Below, one piece after another: positions 1,046 to 9,742 of a stretch of DNA of 64,000 bases (position 1 is its first letter; every line of letters starts with the position of its first letter). A program made the position numbers and the translations under genes. The DNA lies in the sequence record MH051915; one strand, written 5' to 3'. Source of the DNA: Enterobacteria phage vB_EcoM_IME339. A model generated the notes under the pieces. The model was not told the DNA's origin. It was given only the letters and a program-made list of their open reading frames with translations, and made no database searches.

Positions 1046-1333
1046 ATGAAAACTTTCAAAGAATTTACTACAAAAACTACCCCGGTTTCTACTATTACTG
1101 AAGCTACTCTTACTTCTGAAGTTATTAAAGCAAATAAAGGACGAGAAGGTAAACCAATGATTAGTCTGGTTGATGGCGAAGAAATCAAAGGTACTGTTTA
1201 CCTAGGTGATGGGTGGTCTGCTAAAAAGGATGGTGCTACAATCATTATCTCTCCTGCTGAAGAAACTGCGTTGTTTAAAGCTAAACACATTTCTGCGGCA
1301 CATCTCAAGATTATTGCTAAAAATCTTTTGTAA
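1046..1333 (+). CDS. ipI: internal protein I precursor (capsid-targeted, injected; anti-restriction in T4)
   Basis: 95 aa; N-terminal capsid targeting sequence MKTFKEFTTK... with prohead-protease-type site ...ITE/A; mature part matches remembered IPI*. Confidence 0.75.
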   Translation: MKTFKEFTTKTTPVSTITEATLTSEVIKANKGREGKPMISLVDGEEIKGTVYLGDGWSAKKDGATIIISPAEETALFKAKHISAAHLKIIAKNLL

Positions 1334-1344
1334 TAAATATTTCA

Positions 1345-1383
1345 CAAAGTTGTTTACATAGGGTTTTAGTTGTGATACTATTA
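1345..1383 (+). promoter_or_regulatory. T4-type early promoter
   Basis: tttcacaaagttGTTTACAtagggttttagttgTGaTACTAT; near-duplicate of promoter at 980; coordinates approximate. Confidence 0.6.
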
Positions 1384-1409
1384 CCCTATCAACTACCGAG
1401 GAGAATAAA

Positions 1410-1595
1410 ATGAAACGTTGTGAATTAATTAGAAATGTTGCTATTGCAATTTCTGCTTCTGCTTTTAGTTTTTCAATGTTTGTTGGATTTATATGTGGAT
1501 TATTAACTACAGCAGAAAATGTGTTTTCACTTGTAGTAGCATTTTTAATTGGTTTAATTGCTATCGTTATGGATAAAATTTCTAAAGGTGAATAG
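1410..1595 (+). CDS. small hydrophobic (2-TM) protein
   Basis: 61 aa ORF downstream of early promoter; RBS gaggagaataaaATG; hydrophobic stretches. Confidence 0.5.
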   Translation: MKRCELIRNVAIAISASAFSFSMFVGFICGLLTTAENVFSLVVAFLIGLIAIVMDKISKGE

Positions 1596-1596
1596 A

Positions 1597-1980
1597 ATGT
1601 ATAAAGTGTATGCGGATTATCAGGCTAATCCATCTGAAAAGCCAGGTTGTCAAATTGGATGGGCTCATGATACTTTGCTTGAAGCAGTAGATGCTGCTCA
1701 AAAATTAGGATATAAATATGTAGAGATTGTTCAACTACCATCAGGAAAAGTTATTACTCTTGAAGAGTTCAATAATATTAAACCAAACTTTTTACTTTTT
1801 GCAGGTGATAATTATTATCCTCGCGGTGGATATGCTGATTTAATCGCGAAAGCCGCTACCGAAGATGAACTCCGTGATATTATCAAAGAAAATGAAAACA
1901 AACCGATGTATGGTTCTAATCGCTTTGATTGGTGGCAAATCGTAAATGCCCATACTCATACTATTGTTGATGAAGGTTGA
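1597..1980 (+). CDS. hypothetical protein
   Basis: ORF in track from 1558; internal ATG at 1597 preceded by aaaggtgaatag RBS chosen as start. Confidence 0.5.
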   Translation: MYKVYADYQANPSEKPGCQIGWAHDTLLEAVDAAQKLGYKYVEIVQLPSGKVITLEEFNNIKPNFLLFAGDNYYPRGGYADLIAKAATEDELRDIIKENENKPMYGSNRFDWWQIVNAHTHTIVDEG

Positions 1981-2270
1981 TAATGATTCTTTACGCGAAA
2001 GTATCATCCATTGAAAATGGATATAAATATGATCAAGAAGCAGCTAAATCCTTGATTGATGATTATGGCATTTTAACATATTTTGAAGTTGAAAAGGTTT
2101 ACATTGACCGTTCATCTTCTCAGGTTAAATTAGTAAAGGAAGACCGTAAATTTAACACAGTTAACTTTGATTTCTTTATTGAAACAGAAAAAGGTCCTCT
2201 TGAATATGATATTTTCAAGAATCCTTTGGGTCTTGAATGCATCGTAAATATGTATCACCATAAATGGTAA
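1977..2270 (+). CDS. hypothetical protein
   Basis: 97 aa ORF; ATGA start/stop overlap with upstream gene. Confidence 0.5.
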   Translation: MIMILYAKVSSIENGYKYDQEAAKSLIDDYGILTYFEVEKVYIDRSSSQVKLVKEDRKFNTVNFDFFIETEKGPLEYDIFKNPLGLECIVNMYHHKW

Positions 2271-2367
2271 ATATGCTTTAAGAATTATTTGTTATTATTA
2301 ACTCATACCGCACTGATTAATACCCTCTATCACCAAGGGCTCTTATTTGAGAGCCTTTGTTAATAAT

Positions 2368-2440
2368 TGGGAATTAGCCAAGTTGGTAAGGCACTGGATT
2401 TTGATTCCAGGATGCAAAGGTTCGAGTCCTTTATTCCCAG
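2368..2440 (+). tRNA. tRNA-Gln (anticodon UUG)
   Basis: Cloverleaf: acceptor tgggaat/attccca, anticodon loop tTTGat, T-arm ggttcgagtcc; CCA not encoded. Confidence 0.85.
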
Positions 2441-2441
2441 C

Positions 2442-2528
2442 GCGAGAATGGTCAAATTGGTAAAGGCACAGCACTTAAAATGCTGCGGAATGATTTCCTT
2501 GTGGGTTCGAGTCCCACTTCTCGCACCA
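2442..2528 (+). tRNA. tRNA-Leu (anticodon UAA), long variable arm
   Basis: Acceptor gcgagaa/ttctcgc perfect 7 bp, anticodon loop cTTAAaa, T-arm gggttcgagtccc, encoded CCA. Confidence 0.85.
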
Positions 2529-7815: not shown

Positions 7816-8252
7816 AAACATTATCAGCTGGTATTATCTTTATGACAGAAGATAAAGATTTATTTATGGGACGAGTTACTGGTTCTCGTAAGCCTGGAAT
7901 GATGGCACATCGTTGGGATATTCCAAAGGGGCGTGTAGAAAGTTCTGATTTGAATGCACTGGAAGCTGCAAAAAGAGAATGTTTAGAAGAGACTGGCTTT
8001 AGTAATTATAATCCAGACCTTCTAGAAGACCTAGGTGTATTTAAATATTCTAGTAATAAAGACTTACAGTTGTTTTATTATACGATTCCAGTAGAGCATG
8101 AGATGTTTAGAAATTGCCATTGTGAGTCTTATTTTGAAAATAAAGATGGCGTTATGATTCCAGAGATGGATGCTTTTGCTCTTATTCCTCGTACTCAGTG
8201 GCAATATGTGATGGCTCCTTCACTTTACCGAATAATGAACAGCCTCTTTTAA
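7812..8252 (+). CDS. nudE: Nudix hydrolase NudE
   Basis: Nudix box GRVESSDLNALEAAKRECLEETGF; lies immediately upstream of e as in T4; start ATG 7812 overlapping upstream stop. Confidence 0.8.
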   Translation: MKTLSAGIIFMTEDKDLFMGRVTGSRKPGMMAHRWDIPKGRVESSDLNALEAAKRECLEETGFSNYNPDLLEDLGVFKYSSNKDLQLFYYTIPVEHEMFRNCHCESYFENKDGVMIPEMDAFALIPRTQWQYVMAPSLYRIMNSLF

Positions 8253-8254
8253 TT

Positions 8255-8275
8255 TATAAATACCTTCTATAAATA
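8255..8275 (+). promoter_or_regulatory. two tandem T4 late promoter motifs (TATAAATA) for gene e
   Basis: tTATAAATAccttcTATAAATActtaggaggtattATG. Confidence 0.6.
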
Positions 8276-8288
8276 CTTAGGAGGTATT

Positions 8289-8783
8289 ATGAATATATTT
8301 GAAATGTTACGTATAGATGAAGGTCTTAGACTTAAAATCTATAAAGACACAGAAGGTTATTACACTATTGGCATTGGTCATTTGCTTACTAAAAGTCCAT
8401 CACTAAGCGTTGCTAAATCTGAATTAGATAAAGCTATTGGGCGTAATTGCAATGGTGTAATTACAAAAGACGAGGCTGAAAAACTCTTTAATCAGGATGT
8501 CGATGCTGCTGTTCGCGGAATTCTGAGAAATGCTAAATTAAAACCAGTTTATGATTCTCTTGATGCTGTTCGCCGCTGTGCATTGATTAACATGGTCTTC
8601 CAAATGGGGGAAACCGGCGTAGCAGGATTTACTAATTCTTTACGCATGCTCCAGCAAAAACGCTGGGATGAAGCAGCAGTTAACTTAGCTAAAAGTAGAT
8701 GGTATAATCAAACACCTAACCGTGCAAAACGAGTTATTGCAACGTTTAGAACTGGCACTTGGGACGCGTATAAAAATCTATAA
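8289..8783 (+). CDS. e: lysozyme (endolysin, gene e)
   Basis: 164 aa [37 protein letters not shown]...; near-identical to remembered T4 lysozyme with a few substitutions. Confidence 0.97.
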
Positions 8784-8784
8784 A

Positions 8785-8818
8785 GTTGTTTACTTTCTCC
8801 TAGAATTGTGATAGTATA
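8785..8818 (+). promoter_or_regulatory. T4-type early promoter upstream of denV
   Basis: aaagttGTTTACtttctcctagaattgtgaTAGTAT. Confidence 0.5.
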
Positions 8819-8842
8819 TTCACAGTTACTTGGAGGGATAAA

Positions 8843-9259
8843 ATGACTCGTATTAATTTGACTTTAGTATCTGAACTTGCTGATCAACATTTAATCGCAG
8901 AATACCGTGAACTGCCGCGTGTTTTTGGTATAGTTCGTAAACATGTTGCAAATGGTAAACGGGTTAAAGATTTTAAAATATCTTCCGAGTTTATTTTAGG
9001 TTCTGGTCATGTTACGTTCTTTTATGATAAGTTAGAATTTTTGCGAAAGCGTCAATCAGACATTATAACGGAATGCTTAAAACGTGGGTTTAGTATAAAA
9101 GATACTGAAGTTCCTGACATCAGCGATATTCCAGCAGAATGGAAAAATGATTATAATCCATGCAAATCAGCTATTAAGTTGAGTCAACAACGACTCGATG
9201 AAAAAATTTTAATGAAGCCACACTGGTATAAATACTACGGTAAAAATATTTACATTTAA
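8843..9259 (+). CDS. denV: endonuclease V (pyrimidine dimer DNA glycosylase/AP lyase)
   Basis: 138 aa [29 protein letters not shown]...; matches remembered T4 endo V. Confidence 0.95.
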
Positions 9260-9268
9260 AGGAAACAC

Positions 9269-9742
9269 ATGAAAACATATCAAGAATTTATCACTGAAGC
9301 AGCTATTAATTCTCAAATTATTGCTGAATCTTTTACTGATCTTTTGAAATTTAAAAAAGGTCAAAAAATCACTGCTGTATTGGATGATGGTACAGAAGTT
9401 GAGATGGATGTACAGGGATATAATTATGCAGTAGATGGAAAACTGTATAATAAATCTCACGCTAAATTTGATTCATTTGACGACTTTGTTAATACAGTTG
9501 AAGATGAAAAAACTCGTAGATCAATTTCAACTGGCGATGCTAAGGTTCTTATGGCGCACGGCCATGAACGTATCCGCGCCAAACAGAATAAAATGGGTGA
9601 AGATAATTTTGCATTAGTTGGTTATCAATCTGGTAAGCAAACTTATGGCTATCAGCGTACTGCTACCATGTATAACAAAAATGGTAAAATCGCTTTCGTG
9701 AATAGCAAAGGCTCTATTCAGTACGTCAAATCATTCAAATAA
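9269..9742 (+). CDS. internal-protein-like capsid-targeted protein (IP family), at the ipII/ipIII position
   Basis: 157 aa; N-terminal MKTYQEFITEAAINSQIIAE capsid targeting sequence; body unlike T4 IPII/IPIII by recall. Confidence 0.65.
   Translation: MKTYQEFITEAAINSQIIAESFTDLLKFKKGQKITAVLDDGTEVEMDVQGYNYAVDGKLYNKSHAKFDSFDDFVNTVEDEKTRRSISTGDAKVLMAHGHERIRAKQNKMGEDNFALVGYQSGKQTYGYQRTATMYNKNGKIAFVNSKGSIQYVKSFK

What the first reader, a model, noticed from the sequence alone, without database searches (positions are those of the whole stretch)
1046..9742. Relocated and diversified internal (capsid-injected) protein genes
Three proteins carry the T4 capsid-targeting N-terminus: MKTFKEF at 1046 (IPI-like), MKSYAQFLNEA at 3878 and MKTYQEFITEA at 9269, both 157 aa and unlike each other. 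In T4 ipIII and ipII lie between e and denV; here denV directly follows e, one IP follows denV and another lies next to the tRNA/ncRNA region behind a TATAAATA late promoter. Injected internal proteins are known anti-restriction effectors (IPI versus GmrSD), so novel IP bodies are candidate inhibitors of unknown defenses.
Basis: partly seen in the sequence, partly recalled or inferred. Interest (0 to 1): 0.55.

Follow-up and report, generated by a model that had tools for sequence, protein, structure and literature searches.

The report
Injected internal proteins, T4-like phage
This T4-like phage has three small genes carrying the short tag that loads proteins into the phage head for injection into the host: two are known kinds (IPI and Ip4), and the third, always labelled 'hypothetical', sits at a third variable site not listed in the IP literature I could read and is a plausible new anti-defence candidate.

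Summary
In 64 kb, exactly three ORFs carry a T4 capsid-targeting leader followed by a prohead-protease site: 1046-1333, 3878-4351 and 9269-9742. The first is IPI (97% identical to T4 IPI; mature part matches PDB 2JUB). The third is Ip4, a named internal head protein of T2-type phages (Pfam DUF7412), found in about 470 phage records. Its e-denV-ip4 order is shared by hundreds of phages, so it is neither novel nor relocated in any special sense. Its target is unknown; ip4-10 gave no reproducible hit against a GmrSD panel in 2025.

The middle ORF is the interesting one. It is 'hypothetical' in every source sampled (phrog_2280). It lies in a 559-bp cassette with a conserved TATAAATA late promoter, bounded by a 36-nt direct repeat of the rnaC-region terminator. 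T4 and T2 lack the cassette. At the same site other phages carry a second ORF (187 aa) whose body is not detectably related but whose leader is the same, either alone or alongside the first. The papers I could read describe only two IP loci.

Packaging, cleavage and anti-defence function are all inferred, not shown. Verdict: a new member of a known kind, of moderate interest.

The parts
973..1026 (+). Early-promoter plus inverted-repeat element upstream of ipI (GTTTACA ... TACTAT). Copy 1 of a 54-nt direct repeat that brackets ipI.
   Evidence: Direct-repeat family D1, copies 973-1026 and 1339-1392, 78% identical. Sequence read. The same element is present in T4. It is the kind of flank reported for IP loci (PMC2839356).
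1046..1333 (+). ipI, internal protein I (95 aa). Leader is residues 1-19 (MKTFKEFTTKTTPVSTITE|A); mature IPI* is residues 20-95.
   Evidence: Pfam IPI_T4 2e-53. phrog_4363 1.4e-47. 96.8% identical to T4 IPI. PDB 2JUB 'Internal protein I' matches residues 20-95, E 1.6e-44.
1339..1392 (+). Copy 2 of the early-promoter/inverted-repeat element, downstream of ipI and upstream of trna.4.
   Evidence: T4 comparison.
3797..3832 (+). Terminator downstream of the rnaD/rnaC small-RNA region (stem-loop 3800-3823 plus T run). Copy 1 of a 36-nt direct repeat bracketing the ORF 3878 cassette.
   Evidence: Terminator scan. Direct repeat 3797-3832 / 4356-4391, 89% identical, spacing 559. T4 has a single copy and lacks the 559/560 bp between them.
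3830..3837 (+). TATAAATA, T4-type late promoter consensus, 40 nt upstream of the ATG of ORF 3878.
   Evidence: Conserved in the same position in 5 of 5 Tequatrovirus sequences examined (this window plus four related loci) despite indels just downstream; AATAAATA in a Mosigvirus. Promoter activity is inferred.
3878..4351 (+). ORF 'A' (157 aa; RB32ORF133c family, phrog_2280): predicted internal protein. Leader MKSYAQFLNE|AVLNE|A has two L-x-E|A sites. Predicted mature protein is residues 16-157, 15.5 kDa, pI 9.6, all-helical.
   Evidence: Leader score 16.1 bits against -3.0 for the best non-IP ORF. E15 is invariant across the family. Only 13 representatives among 1.84 billion proteins; the full-length ones start with a leader of this type, and those with source names are from T4-like phages. 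dN/dS 0.09 against the Mosigvirus copy. pI. AF2 pLDDT 72. Every source name seen is 'hypothetical'.
4356..4391 (+). Second terminator (stem-loop 4361-4380), copy 2 of the 36-nt repeat. Marks the 3' end of the cassette.
8784..8842 (+). Early-promoter/inverted-repeat element between e and denV. Its 5' part is the T4 e-to-ipIII intergenic sequence and its 3' end is the denV ribosome-binding region.
   Evidence: Window 8201-8832 aligns with T4 e through the e-ipIII spacer (94.6%). The alignment then jumps to T4 denV. Sequence read.
8843..9259 (+). denV (endonuclease V, 138 aa), placed between e and the IP gene. C-terminus is ...GKNIYI, where T4 has ...GKAIYA.
   Evidence: Pfam Pyr_excise 2e-13. 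78% nt identity to T4 denV. C-terminal comparison.
9241..9268 (+). Conserved IP 5' leader DNA (AAAAATATTTACATTTAAAGGAAACA). It overlaps the last six codons and the stop of denV and supplies the ribosome-binding site of ip4.
   Evidence: Window 9241-9300 is 93% identical to the T4 sequence just upstream of and into ipII, and window 9254-9300 is 91% identical to the corresponding ipIII sequence.
9269..9742 (+). ip4 (Ip4/IpIV, 157 aa, DUF7412). Leader MKTYQEFITE|AAINSQIIAE|S with two conserved sites (E10 and E20). Predicted mature protein is residues 21-157, 15.5 kDa, pI 9.3, alpha/beta.
   Evidence: Pfam DUF7412 1.3e-95. phrog_3155 'internal virion protein' 1e-101. Annotated ipIV in Kha5h. 99.4% identical in T2. 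Source names 'IpIV internal head protein'. E10 and E20 nearly invariant. AF2 pLDDT 73, pTM 0.67.
9227..9234 (+). TATAAATA inside the 3' end of denV, 34 nt before the ip4 ATG. Probably fortuitous or lineage-specific.
   Evidence: Kha5h and HY01 have the same e-denV-ip4 order but read TACAAGTA here, and T4 reads TACAAATA.

Best explanation
The window comes from a T2/RB32-type Tequatrovirus that encodes three capsid-targeted internal proteins (IPs).
1. IPI is the ortholog of the T4 inhibitor of the GmrSD type IV restriction enzyme.
2. Ip4 is the T2-type IP. It sits in the classical e/denV IP locus, here in the order e-denV-ip4.
3. A 157-aa protein ('A') is encoded by a self-contained cassette (late promoter, ORF, terminator) between the rnaC terminator and e.8.

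The rnaC-e.8 junction behaves as a third IP site. It is polymorphic, and different phages carry alternative ORFs there that share only the leader.

Proposed mechanism for A and Ip4 (inferred, by analogy with T4 IPI-III):
- Late transcription produces the precursor.
- The N-terminal leader, with aromatic residues at positions 4 and 7, docks the precursor onto the scaffolding core during prohead assembly.
- The gp21 prohead protease cuts after L/I-x-E. For A this is at E10 and/or E15; for Ip4 at E10 and/or E20.
- The basic mature protein of about 15.5 kDa stays with the packaged DNA and is ejected into the cell with it.
- There it most likely neutralises a first-response DNA-targeting defence. 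A GmrSD-family type IV enzyme is the leading guess.

The IP genes appear to move as cassettes by recombination between short repeated regulatory sequences. At the two classical loci these are early-promoter/stem-loop repeats. At the third site they are terminator repeats.
For: **Leader and cleavage sites**
- Only three of 643 ORFs match the CTS pattern, with an independent matrix giving 31.1, 23.6 and 16.1 bits against -3.0 for the next ORF.
- L/I-x-E|A/S motifs are present in all three.
- Published mutagenesis places targeting at CTS residues 4 and 7 and processing at 8 and 10 (PMC9026906). A keeps Y4, F7, L8 and E10.

**Identity of IPI and Ip4**
- IPI.
- Ip4. E10 and E20 are nearly invariant.

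**Protein A**
- The leader and the invariant E15 are kept across all full-length relatives, including Yersinia and Klebsiella phage proteins with a different C-terminal half.
- The family is tiny; every member with a source name comes from a T4-like phage or from a bacterial assembly holding a phage-length contig (13 representatives of 1.84 billion).
- It is under purifying selection (dN/dS 0.09).
- It is basic, pI 9.6, like T4 IPII and IPIII.
- TATAAATA is conserved upstream in 5 of 5 Tequatrovirus sequences examined.

**Third locus**
- The 559-bp cassette is bounded by a 36-nt terminator repeat and is absent from T4 and T2.
- The same site carries ORF 'B' (187 aa, MKTYAEFLTE|A, mature pI 9.5). 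B occurs alone in SP1 and together with A in pSs-1 and JB75.
- A and B share only the 11-residue leader by BLASTP and hhalign.
- A occupies the same site in a Mosigvirus.

**Cassette joints at the classical locus**.

**Function by analogy**: Ip1, Ip2 and Ip3 each inhibit a different GmrSD (PMC12373910). IPIII works in the cytoplasm without its CTS (PMC9391042).
Against: - No experimental evidence was found here that A, B or this Ip4 allele is in virions, is cleaved, or is injected. The one virion proteome I found for a phage carrying A (SH7) listed only 13 structural proteins (plus an ADP-ribosylase) and no IP at all, so it is uninformative.
- A does not lie in either of the two published IP loci and lacks their early-promoter/stem-loop flanks.
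- The ip4-10 genes gave no reproducible inhibition of 15 GmrSD groups, so the GmrSD guess may be wrong for Ip4.
- I could not read Repoila 1994 or Comeau 2007, so A or B may already be among the '>30 known IP variants'.
Confidence: 0.75

Rival explanations
1. A (and possibly Ip4) is packaged through its leader but serves the virion rather than counter-defence. As a basic, lysine-rich helical protein it would neutralise DNA charge or assist head assembly and DNA packing, as has been discussed for T4 IPIII. This is not exclusive of an anti-defence role.
For: Mature A has pI 9.6 with 24 K+R and a Lys/Pro/Ala-rich linker (KASGKPAPKADPKAAQEK). T4 IPIII mutants assemble heads more slowly and give smaller bursts, and IP lysines contact DNA phosphates (PMC9026906; PMC3012670). 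No defence target is known for ip4-10.
Against: A is dispensable: T4, T2 and RB3 lack it. It alternates with a body (B) that shows no detectable similarity to it. A patchy, cassette-like distribution fits an accessory host-range function better than a structural need. All three T4 IPs turned out to be specific GmrSD inhibitors.
Confidence: 0.25
2. ORF 3878 is an ordinary late cytoplasmic protein whose N-terminus merely resembles a CTS. It is neither packaged nor injected.
For: It lies outside the two described IP loci, and all databases call it hypothetical. Its leader scores lower than those of IPI and Ip4 (16.1 against 23.6 and 31.1 bits). At the DNA level it is not a recent copy of the ipII/ipIII leader (sequence read).
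Against: - The leader stands 19 bits above any non-IP ORF in 64 kb.
- The positions that matter experimentally (4, 7, 8, 10) are kept.
- The leader and its L-x-E site are conserved in every full-length relative, even where the body has diverged or been swapped.
- A second body, not detectably related to A, carries the same leader at the same site.
- In T4, ten CTS residues are enough to package foreign proteins.
Confidence: 0.12
3. The arrangement reflects a recent, unusual relocation of IP genes in this particular phage.
For: Relative to T4, ipII and ipIII are missing between e and denV and an IP follows denV. The end of denV is built from IP leader DNA.
Against: Most of the 11-kb layout is shared: 346 phage records cover at least 80% of the query in one place. 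Kha5h and HY01 have the same e-denV-ip4 order and the same denV C-terminus. Ip4 is in 469 records and A in 510. T2 has e-ip4. This is a long-standing allelic configuration of a known polymorphic locus.
Confidence: 0.03

Closest known systems
[quoted passage not shown]
   Same: All have an N-terminal capsid-targeting leader (MKT[YF].EF...), an L/I-x-E|A prohead-protease site, small basic mature proteins and non-essential genes with patchy distribution. The window's IPI is the true ortholog (96.8% identical).
   Different: The bodies of Ip4 and A show no supported similarity to IPII or IPIII beyond the leader region; the only longer alignment is Ip4-IPII at 28% identity and 31.6 bits. A lies outside both T4 IP loci and has a late promoter and terminator repeats rather than early-promoter/stem-loop flanks. 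Targets are known for Ip1-3 (distinct GmrSD enzymes) but for neither Ip4 nor A.
Ip4 / IpIV of T2-type phages (Pfam DUF7412, phrog_3155)
   Same: ORF 9269-9742 is a member: full-length match at 1.3e-95, and 99.4% identical to the T2 protein.
   Different: None at the protein level. Only the gene's neighbours differ: e-denV-ip4 here, e-ip4 in T2.
The ip5-ip10 genes of the two T-even IP loci (Repoila et al. 1994), for example T2 Ip7
   Same: These are alternative, mutually unrelated bodies behind one conserved leader, occupying the same genomic slot in different phages and bracketed by repeated regulatory DNA. A and B at the rnaC-e.8 site follow this pattern.
   Different: The site is different. 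The flanking repeat is a rho-independent terminator rather than an early promoter with a stem-loop. The promoter is of the late type. A and B carry no 'internal protein' label in PHROGs, Pfam, NCBI or UniProt names. I could not read the 1994 paper to exclude overlap.
PeSL promoter/stem-loop cassettes of T4-type phages (Arbiol et al. 2010) and lambdoid 'morons'
   Same: A single accessory ORF carries its own promoter and terminator. It is gained or lost by recombination between short conserved regulatory repeats without disturbing its neighbours.
   Different: PeSLs are sigma-70-like early promoters with G/C-rich stem-loops in RB49-type phages. Here the repeat is the terminator itself and the promoter is a T4 late promoter.
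Other packaged anti-restriction proteins (phage P1 DarA/DarB and Hdf)
   Same: These are proteins loaded into the head and ejected with the DNA to pre-empt restriction. This is a functional analogy only.
   Different: There is no sequence or fold relationship, and the packaging signals and sizes differ.

Membership tests
T-even internal proteins (CTS-bearing, packaged, injected) | N-terminal capsid-targeting sequence of about 10 residues resembling MKTYQEFIAE, with the targeting determinants at positions 4 and 7 | tested here: met
   All three ORFs, and no other of 643, match. PSSM scores are 31.1 (Ip4), 23.6 (IPI) and 16.1 (A) bits against -3.0 for the next ORF. The determinants come from PMC9026906.
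T-even internal proteins (CTS-bearing, packaged, injected) | gp21 prohead-protease site (L/I-x-E followed by A, G or S) ending the leader | tested here: met
   IPI has ITE|A at residue 19. A has LNE|A at 10 and at 15, with E15 invariant in the family. Ip4 has ITE|A at 10 and IAE|S at 20, both nearly invariant. Cleavage itself has not been shown.
T-even internal proteins (CTS-bearing, packaged, injected) | Processed protein present in purified virions and ejected into the host | not testable with these tools
   The only proteome I found for an A-carrying phage (SH7) detected 13 structural proteins plus an ADP-ribosylase, and no IPs. For IPI this feature is established in T4 (literature).
T-even internal proteins (CTS-bearing, packaged, injected) | Gene located in one of the two described IP loci (57B-trna.4, or e-denV) and flanked by early-promoter/stem-loop repeats | tested here: not met
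   Met for ipI, which has 54-nt repeats at 973-1026 and 1339-1392. Broadly met for ip4, which is in the e/denV locus. Not met for A, which lies between the rnaC terminator and e.8 and is flanked by terminator repeats. This feature describes where IP genes have been found, not how they work (PMC2839356).
T-even internal proteins (CTS-bearing, packaged, injected) | Small basic protein, dispensable, with variable presence and alternative bodies at the same slot in related phages | tested here: met
   Mature pI is 9.0-9.6. A is absent from T4, T2 and RB3, and the slot can hold A, B, both or neither.
IPI_T4 (Pfam PF11634), GmrSD inhibitor IPI* | Full-length match to the family model and to the solved IPI* structure sequence | tested here: met
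   ORF 1046: 178.7 bits against a cut-off of 25. 2JUB chain A matches residues 20-95 with E 1.6e-44. Inhibitor activity of this allele, which has 3 substitutions, was not tested.
DUF7412 / Ip4 (Pfam PF24183) | Full-length match above the curated cut-off | tested here: met
   ORF 9269: 318.2 bits against a cut-off of 27, covering residues 1-157 of 158.
T4 IPII and IPIII | Sequence similarity extending through the mature protein | tested here: not met
   Ip4 matches IPIII only over the leader (13 residues). The longer Ip4-IPII local alignment is 28% identity at 31.6 bits and starts at the leader. A versus IPII/IPIII gives nothing significant.
GmrSD (type IV restriction) inhibitors | Relief of restriction by a defined GmrSD enzyme when the protein is supplied | not testable with these tools
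   Shown for Ip1-3 only. The ip4-10 genes gave no reproducible effect on 15 GmrSD groups. To my knowledge A and B have not been tested.

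The most novel reading that the evidence does not exclude
The junction between the rnaC terminator and e.8 is a third IP locus of Tevenvirinae that is not described in the literature I could read. It is an integration slot for cassettes made of a late promoter, an ORF and a terminator. Its alternative products are A (157 aa, in about 500 sequenced phages) and B (187 aa, in about 165). On this reading both are loaded into the head, cut by gp21 and injected, and they disarm host defences not covered by Ip1-10. 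Candidate targets include the active GmrSD groups for which no Ip inhibitor has been found.
Probability: 0.35. Interest if true: 0.6.

Novelty: new member of a known kind. Interest (0 to 1): 0.4.

Why it matters
Injected internal proteins act at the moment of DNA entry. Every one with a known function (Ip1, Ip2, Ip3) is a highly specific inhibitor of a type IV restriction enzyme and helps set phage host range.

Reviews and the 2025 functional study describe two IP loci and a panel of ten ip genes. If the rnaC-e.8 cassettes also encode IPs, two widespread proteins (A and B), probably never screened, join the candidate list. Hundreds of therapeutic-candidate Tequatrovirus and Mosigvirus genomes carry an unannotated host-range determinant.

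The practical gain is better annotation and two clear candidates for anti-defence screens. The concept itself, diverse IP bodies behind a common leader, has been known since 1994.

Tried and rejected
1. **Full-length alignment of the two 157-aa proteins to T4 IPII/IPIII.** Only the leader aligns convincingly; the one longer Ip4-IPII alignment (28% identity, 31.6 bits) has no independent support.
2. **Fold assignment.**
   - A: AF2 pLDDT 72, pTM 0.44. Foldseek against BFVD found only its own family and one Serratia phage protein.
   - Profile searches of PDB sequences found nothing.
3. **A conserved late promoter for ip4 inside denV.** The idea was a synonymous TAC-to-TAT change that creates TATAAATA. 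Rejected, because Kha5h and HY01 have the same gene order but read TACAAGTA. An IMG/VR pattern scan to widen the test returned 5 loci, of which only one was relevant.
4. **TATAAATA enrichment as evidence.** The word is not over-represented (8 found, 10.4 expected). Only its position and conservation carry weight.
5. **A and B as paralogs.** Both hit phrog_2280 over its full length, but BLASTP and hhalign align only the 11-residue leader. I treat the bodies as not detectably related.
6. **Published virion proteomics for A.** The SH7 study is too shallow. The fPS phage paper has no proteomics.
7. **Sequences of the ip4-10 constructs.** They are not present in the held supplements of PMC12373910.
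8. **Primary IP literature.** Repoila 1994, Comeau 2007 and Miller 2003 are not held. Petrov 2010 does not mention IPs.
9. **NCBIfam.** No meaningful hits.

Full report
**What the window is.** The first 11 kb match more than a thousand T4-like phage records. 346 of them cover at least 80% of the query, and the best are about 96% identical (ime09, Shigella phage SH-1, HY01, Kha5h). On the + strand the genes run 57A, 57B, ipI, trna.4-like ORFs, eight tRNAs, the rnaD/rnaC small-RNA region, ORF 3878, e.8 to e.2-like ORFs, nudE, e, denV, ORF 9269 and vs.8. T4 itself has e-ipIII-ipII-denV-vs.8 and has nothing between rnaC and e.8.

**Checking the observation.**
- A regular expression for the T4 capsid-targeting sequence (CTS) picks out exactly these three among 643 ATG-started ORFs of at least 40 aa on both strands of the whole window.
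- A position matrix built only from IP leaders of other phages scores them 31.1 (9269), 23.6 (1046) and 16.1 bits (3878). The next ORF scores -3.0, and the mean is -20.4 with sd 6.5.
- Each leader ends in the prohead-protease motif L/I-x-E followed by A or S.
- A TATAAATA lies 40 nt before the ATG at 3878.

**ORF 1046 is IPI.** It matches Pfam IPI_T4 at 2e-53 and phrog_4363 'internal virion protein'. It is 96.8% identical to T4 IPI. Residues 20-95 match the solved IPI* chain 2JUB, which fits cleavage after ITE at residue 19. The gene is bracketed by a 54-nt direct repeat holding a T4 early promoter and an inverted repeat (973-1026 and 1339-1392). This is the arrangement reported for the IP loci (PMC2839356).

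**ORF 9269 is Ip4, a known family.**
- It matches Pfam DUF7412 over its full length (1.3e-95) and phrog_3155 'internal virion protein' (1e-101).
- Kha5h annotates the ortholog as ipIV, 'internal head protein 4'. UniProt and NCBI names include 'IpIV internal head protein'.
- The gene is in 469 phage records, including T2 at 99.4% identity.
- Its body is highly conserved, with 49 invariant columns among 15 sequences. Two potential cleavage sites, E10 and E20, are nearly invariant. The mature protein therefore probably starts at residue 21, much as IPI is cut at 19.

**The joints with T4 at the e/denV locus.**
- Window 8201-8832 follows T4 e and the e-ipIII spacer, then jumps to denV.
- Window 9241-9300 is 93% identical to the DNA just upstream of and into T4 ipII. 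The last six codons of this denV allele (ending ...KNIYI, where T4 has ...KAIYA) are therefore IP leader DNA.
- From 9754 onward the window rejoins the T4 denV-vs.8 spacer.
- Kha5h and HY01 share this order and the same denV C-terminus. T2 has e-ip4 with no annotated denV gene in that interval.

This is one common allelic state of a known polymorphic IP locus, not a special relocation. The TATAAATA inside denV (9227-9234) is not conserved in Kha5h or HY01, so I do not treat it as a dedicated promoter.

**ORF 3878 ('A') is the new element.**
- *Annotation.* It has no Pfam or NCBIfam match and falls in phrog_2280, 'unknown function'. It occurs in 510 phage records. It is 'hypothetical' in every annotated row and cluster member I sampled, and has no CDS annotation in Kha5h and GiZh.
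- *Family size.* An exhaustive HMMER search of 1.84 billion representative proteins found only 13 relatives. Those with source names are from T4-like phages, and the full-length ones begin with x-x-[YF]-x-[EQDS]-F-[LV]-x-E or a close variant.
- *Cleavage site.* Glutamate 15 is invariant in the family alignment. Relatives with shorter leaders place it at position 9 or 10, as in the canonical CTS. The window allele carries a 5-residue duplication (FLNEA-VLNEA) that gives two sites.
- *Physical properties.* The predicted mature protein has 142 residues, 15.5 kDa and pI 9.6. The model is all-helical: a small N-terminal bundle, a Lys/Pro/Ala-rich linker and a long helical hairpin (pLDDT 72). No fold match was found.
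- *Selection.* Against the Mosigvirus copy, dN/dS is 0.09. The N-terminal domain evolves much faster than the C-terminal half. Yersinia and Klebsiella phage relatives keep the N-terminal domain and have a different C-terminal half.

**The cassette and its site.**
- *The indel.* Compared with T4, the window has a clean 559/560-bp extra segment. Its ends are a 36-nt direct repeat of the terminator that follows rnaC (3797-3832 and 4356-4391, 89% identical). Both copies score as terminators. The unit is therefore terminator, TATAAATA, ribosome-binding site, ORF, terminator.
- *The promoter.* TATAAATA is conserved in five of five Tequatrovirus sequences examined (this window plus four related loci) despite indels immediately downstream. 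It reads AATAAATA in a Mosigvirus that has A at the same site.
- *States of the junction.* Surveying it in the phage collection shows several states. It is empty in T4, T2L, RB3, ACG-C40 and PST. It holds A alone in RB32, RB51 and this window.
- *The second ORF.* SP1 carries a different ORF, 'B', alone, and pSs-1 and JB75 carry A followed by B. B is 187 aa, starts MKTYAEFLTE|A, has a mature pI of 9.5, is found in 165 records, and is also always 'hypothetical' (RB14ORF136).
- *A versus B.* They share only the 11-residue leader by BLASTP and by profile comparison, although PHROGs places both in phrog_2280.

Alternative bodies with no detectable similarity to each other, behind one conserved leader, in one slot, bracketed by repeated regulatory DNA: this is the published signature of an IP locus.

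**Comparison with the literature.**
- Diverse IP bodies behind a conserved leader have been known since Repoila et al. 1994, which I know only through citations.
- Arbiol et al. [quoted passage not shown]
- Silas et al. 2025 also describe two loci. They show that Ip1, Ip2 and Ip3 each inhibit a different GmrSD type IV restriction enzyme. They report that ip4-10 gave no reproducible effect on 15 GmrSD groups.
- Srikant et al. 2022 showed that IPIII works in the host cytoplasm even without its CTS.
- CTS mutagenesis locates targeting at residues 4 and 7 and processing at 8 and 10. A keeps Y4, F7, L8 and E10.

Against this background IPI and Ip4 are already known. A and its site-mate B look like unrecognised IPs at a third site. 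I could not read Repoila 1994 or Comeau 2007, so prior description cannot be excluded.

**Mechanism.**
- *Shown by sequence.* The leader, the cleavage motifs, the promoter and terminator words, the cassette boundaries, the distribution, and selective constraint.
- *Inferred by analogy with T4 IPI-III.* Late expression; docking on the scaffolding core; gp21 cleavage (A at E10 and/or E15, Ip4 at E10 and/or E20); retention with the DNA; ejection into the cell; and inhibition of an early DNA-targeting defence, most likely a GmrSD-type enzyme.
- *Alternatives.* A mainly structural or DNA-neutralising role is possible and not exclusive. A non-packaged cytoplasmic role is unlikely, given conservation of the leader across diverged and swapped bodies.

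**Verdict.** Two of the three proteins are ordinary, known IPs in a common configuration. The remaining value lies in the unannotated A protein and the polymorphic rnaC-e.8 cassette site. It is a new member of a known kind, of moderate interest, and is directly testable by virion mass spectrometry and anti-defence assays.

Noticed in passing
window 2941-3045: The 105-nt gap between tRNA-Met and tRNA-Arg is 98% identical to the 5' part of Kha5h tRNA-Tyr, including a GTA anticodon loop, but ARAGORN calls no tRNA there. Kha5h, T2 and JB75 have intact tRNA-Tyr and tRNA-Asn at this place. It is probably a deletion-derived pseudo-tRNA.
   Followed up: partly
window 3138-3488: A 116-aa ORF lies between tRNA-Arg and the rnaD/rnaC region. 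T4 has no gene there because rnaD abuts tRNA-Arg, whereas T2 does (its record notes similarity to an RB51 protein). Function unknown; no CTS.
   Followed up: no
window 9241-9259 (3' end of denV): The last six codons and the stop of denV are identical in sequence to the conserved 5' leader DNA of IP genes (T4 ipII upstream region). They give a ...GKNIYI C-terminus where T4 has ...GKAIYA. Kha5h and HY01 share this. It is a recombination scar in which regulatory DNA became coding.
   Followed up: partly
window 3830, 8255, 8268, 9227 and four other sites: All eight TATAAATA words in the 64-kb window are on the + strand, although their number is not above chance (8 found, 10.4 expected). Two lie just upstream of e.
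   Followed up: partly
window 3878-3922: The leader of ORF A carries a five-residue duplication (FLNEA-VLNEA), which creates two tandem L-x-E|A protease sites. More distant relatives have a single site.
   Followed up: partly
L004 (T2, AP018813.1) 930-1403; L001 (Kha5h) 4961-5434: Annotation problems in public records. T2's ip4 is labelled 'valyl tRNA synthetase modifier'. ORF A has no CDS annotation in Kha5h and GiZh.
   Followed up: yes
PHROGs hits of window 9269-9742 and of L004 8298-8606: phrog_3966 ('unknown function') is hit through the leaders of Ip4 and T2 Ip7 (E 7e-4 and 3e-3). It may be another IP family that lacks the label.
   Followed up: no
window 3878-4351 versus L008 2111-2575, and relatives P0010/P0011: ORF A is modular. 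Between Tequatrovirus and Mosigvirus the N-terminal domain (residues 17-76) diverges fast (pN 0.23) while the C-terminal half is nearly fixed (pN 0.04). Yersinia and Klebsiella phage relatives keep the N-terminal domain and carry a different C-terminal half.
   Followed up: partly
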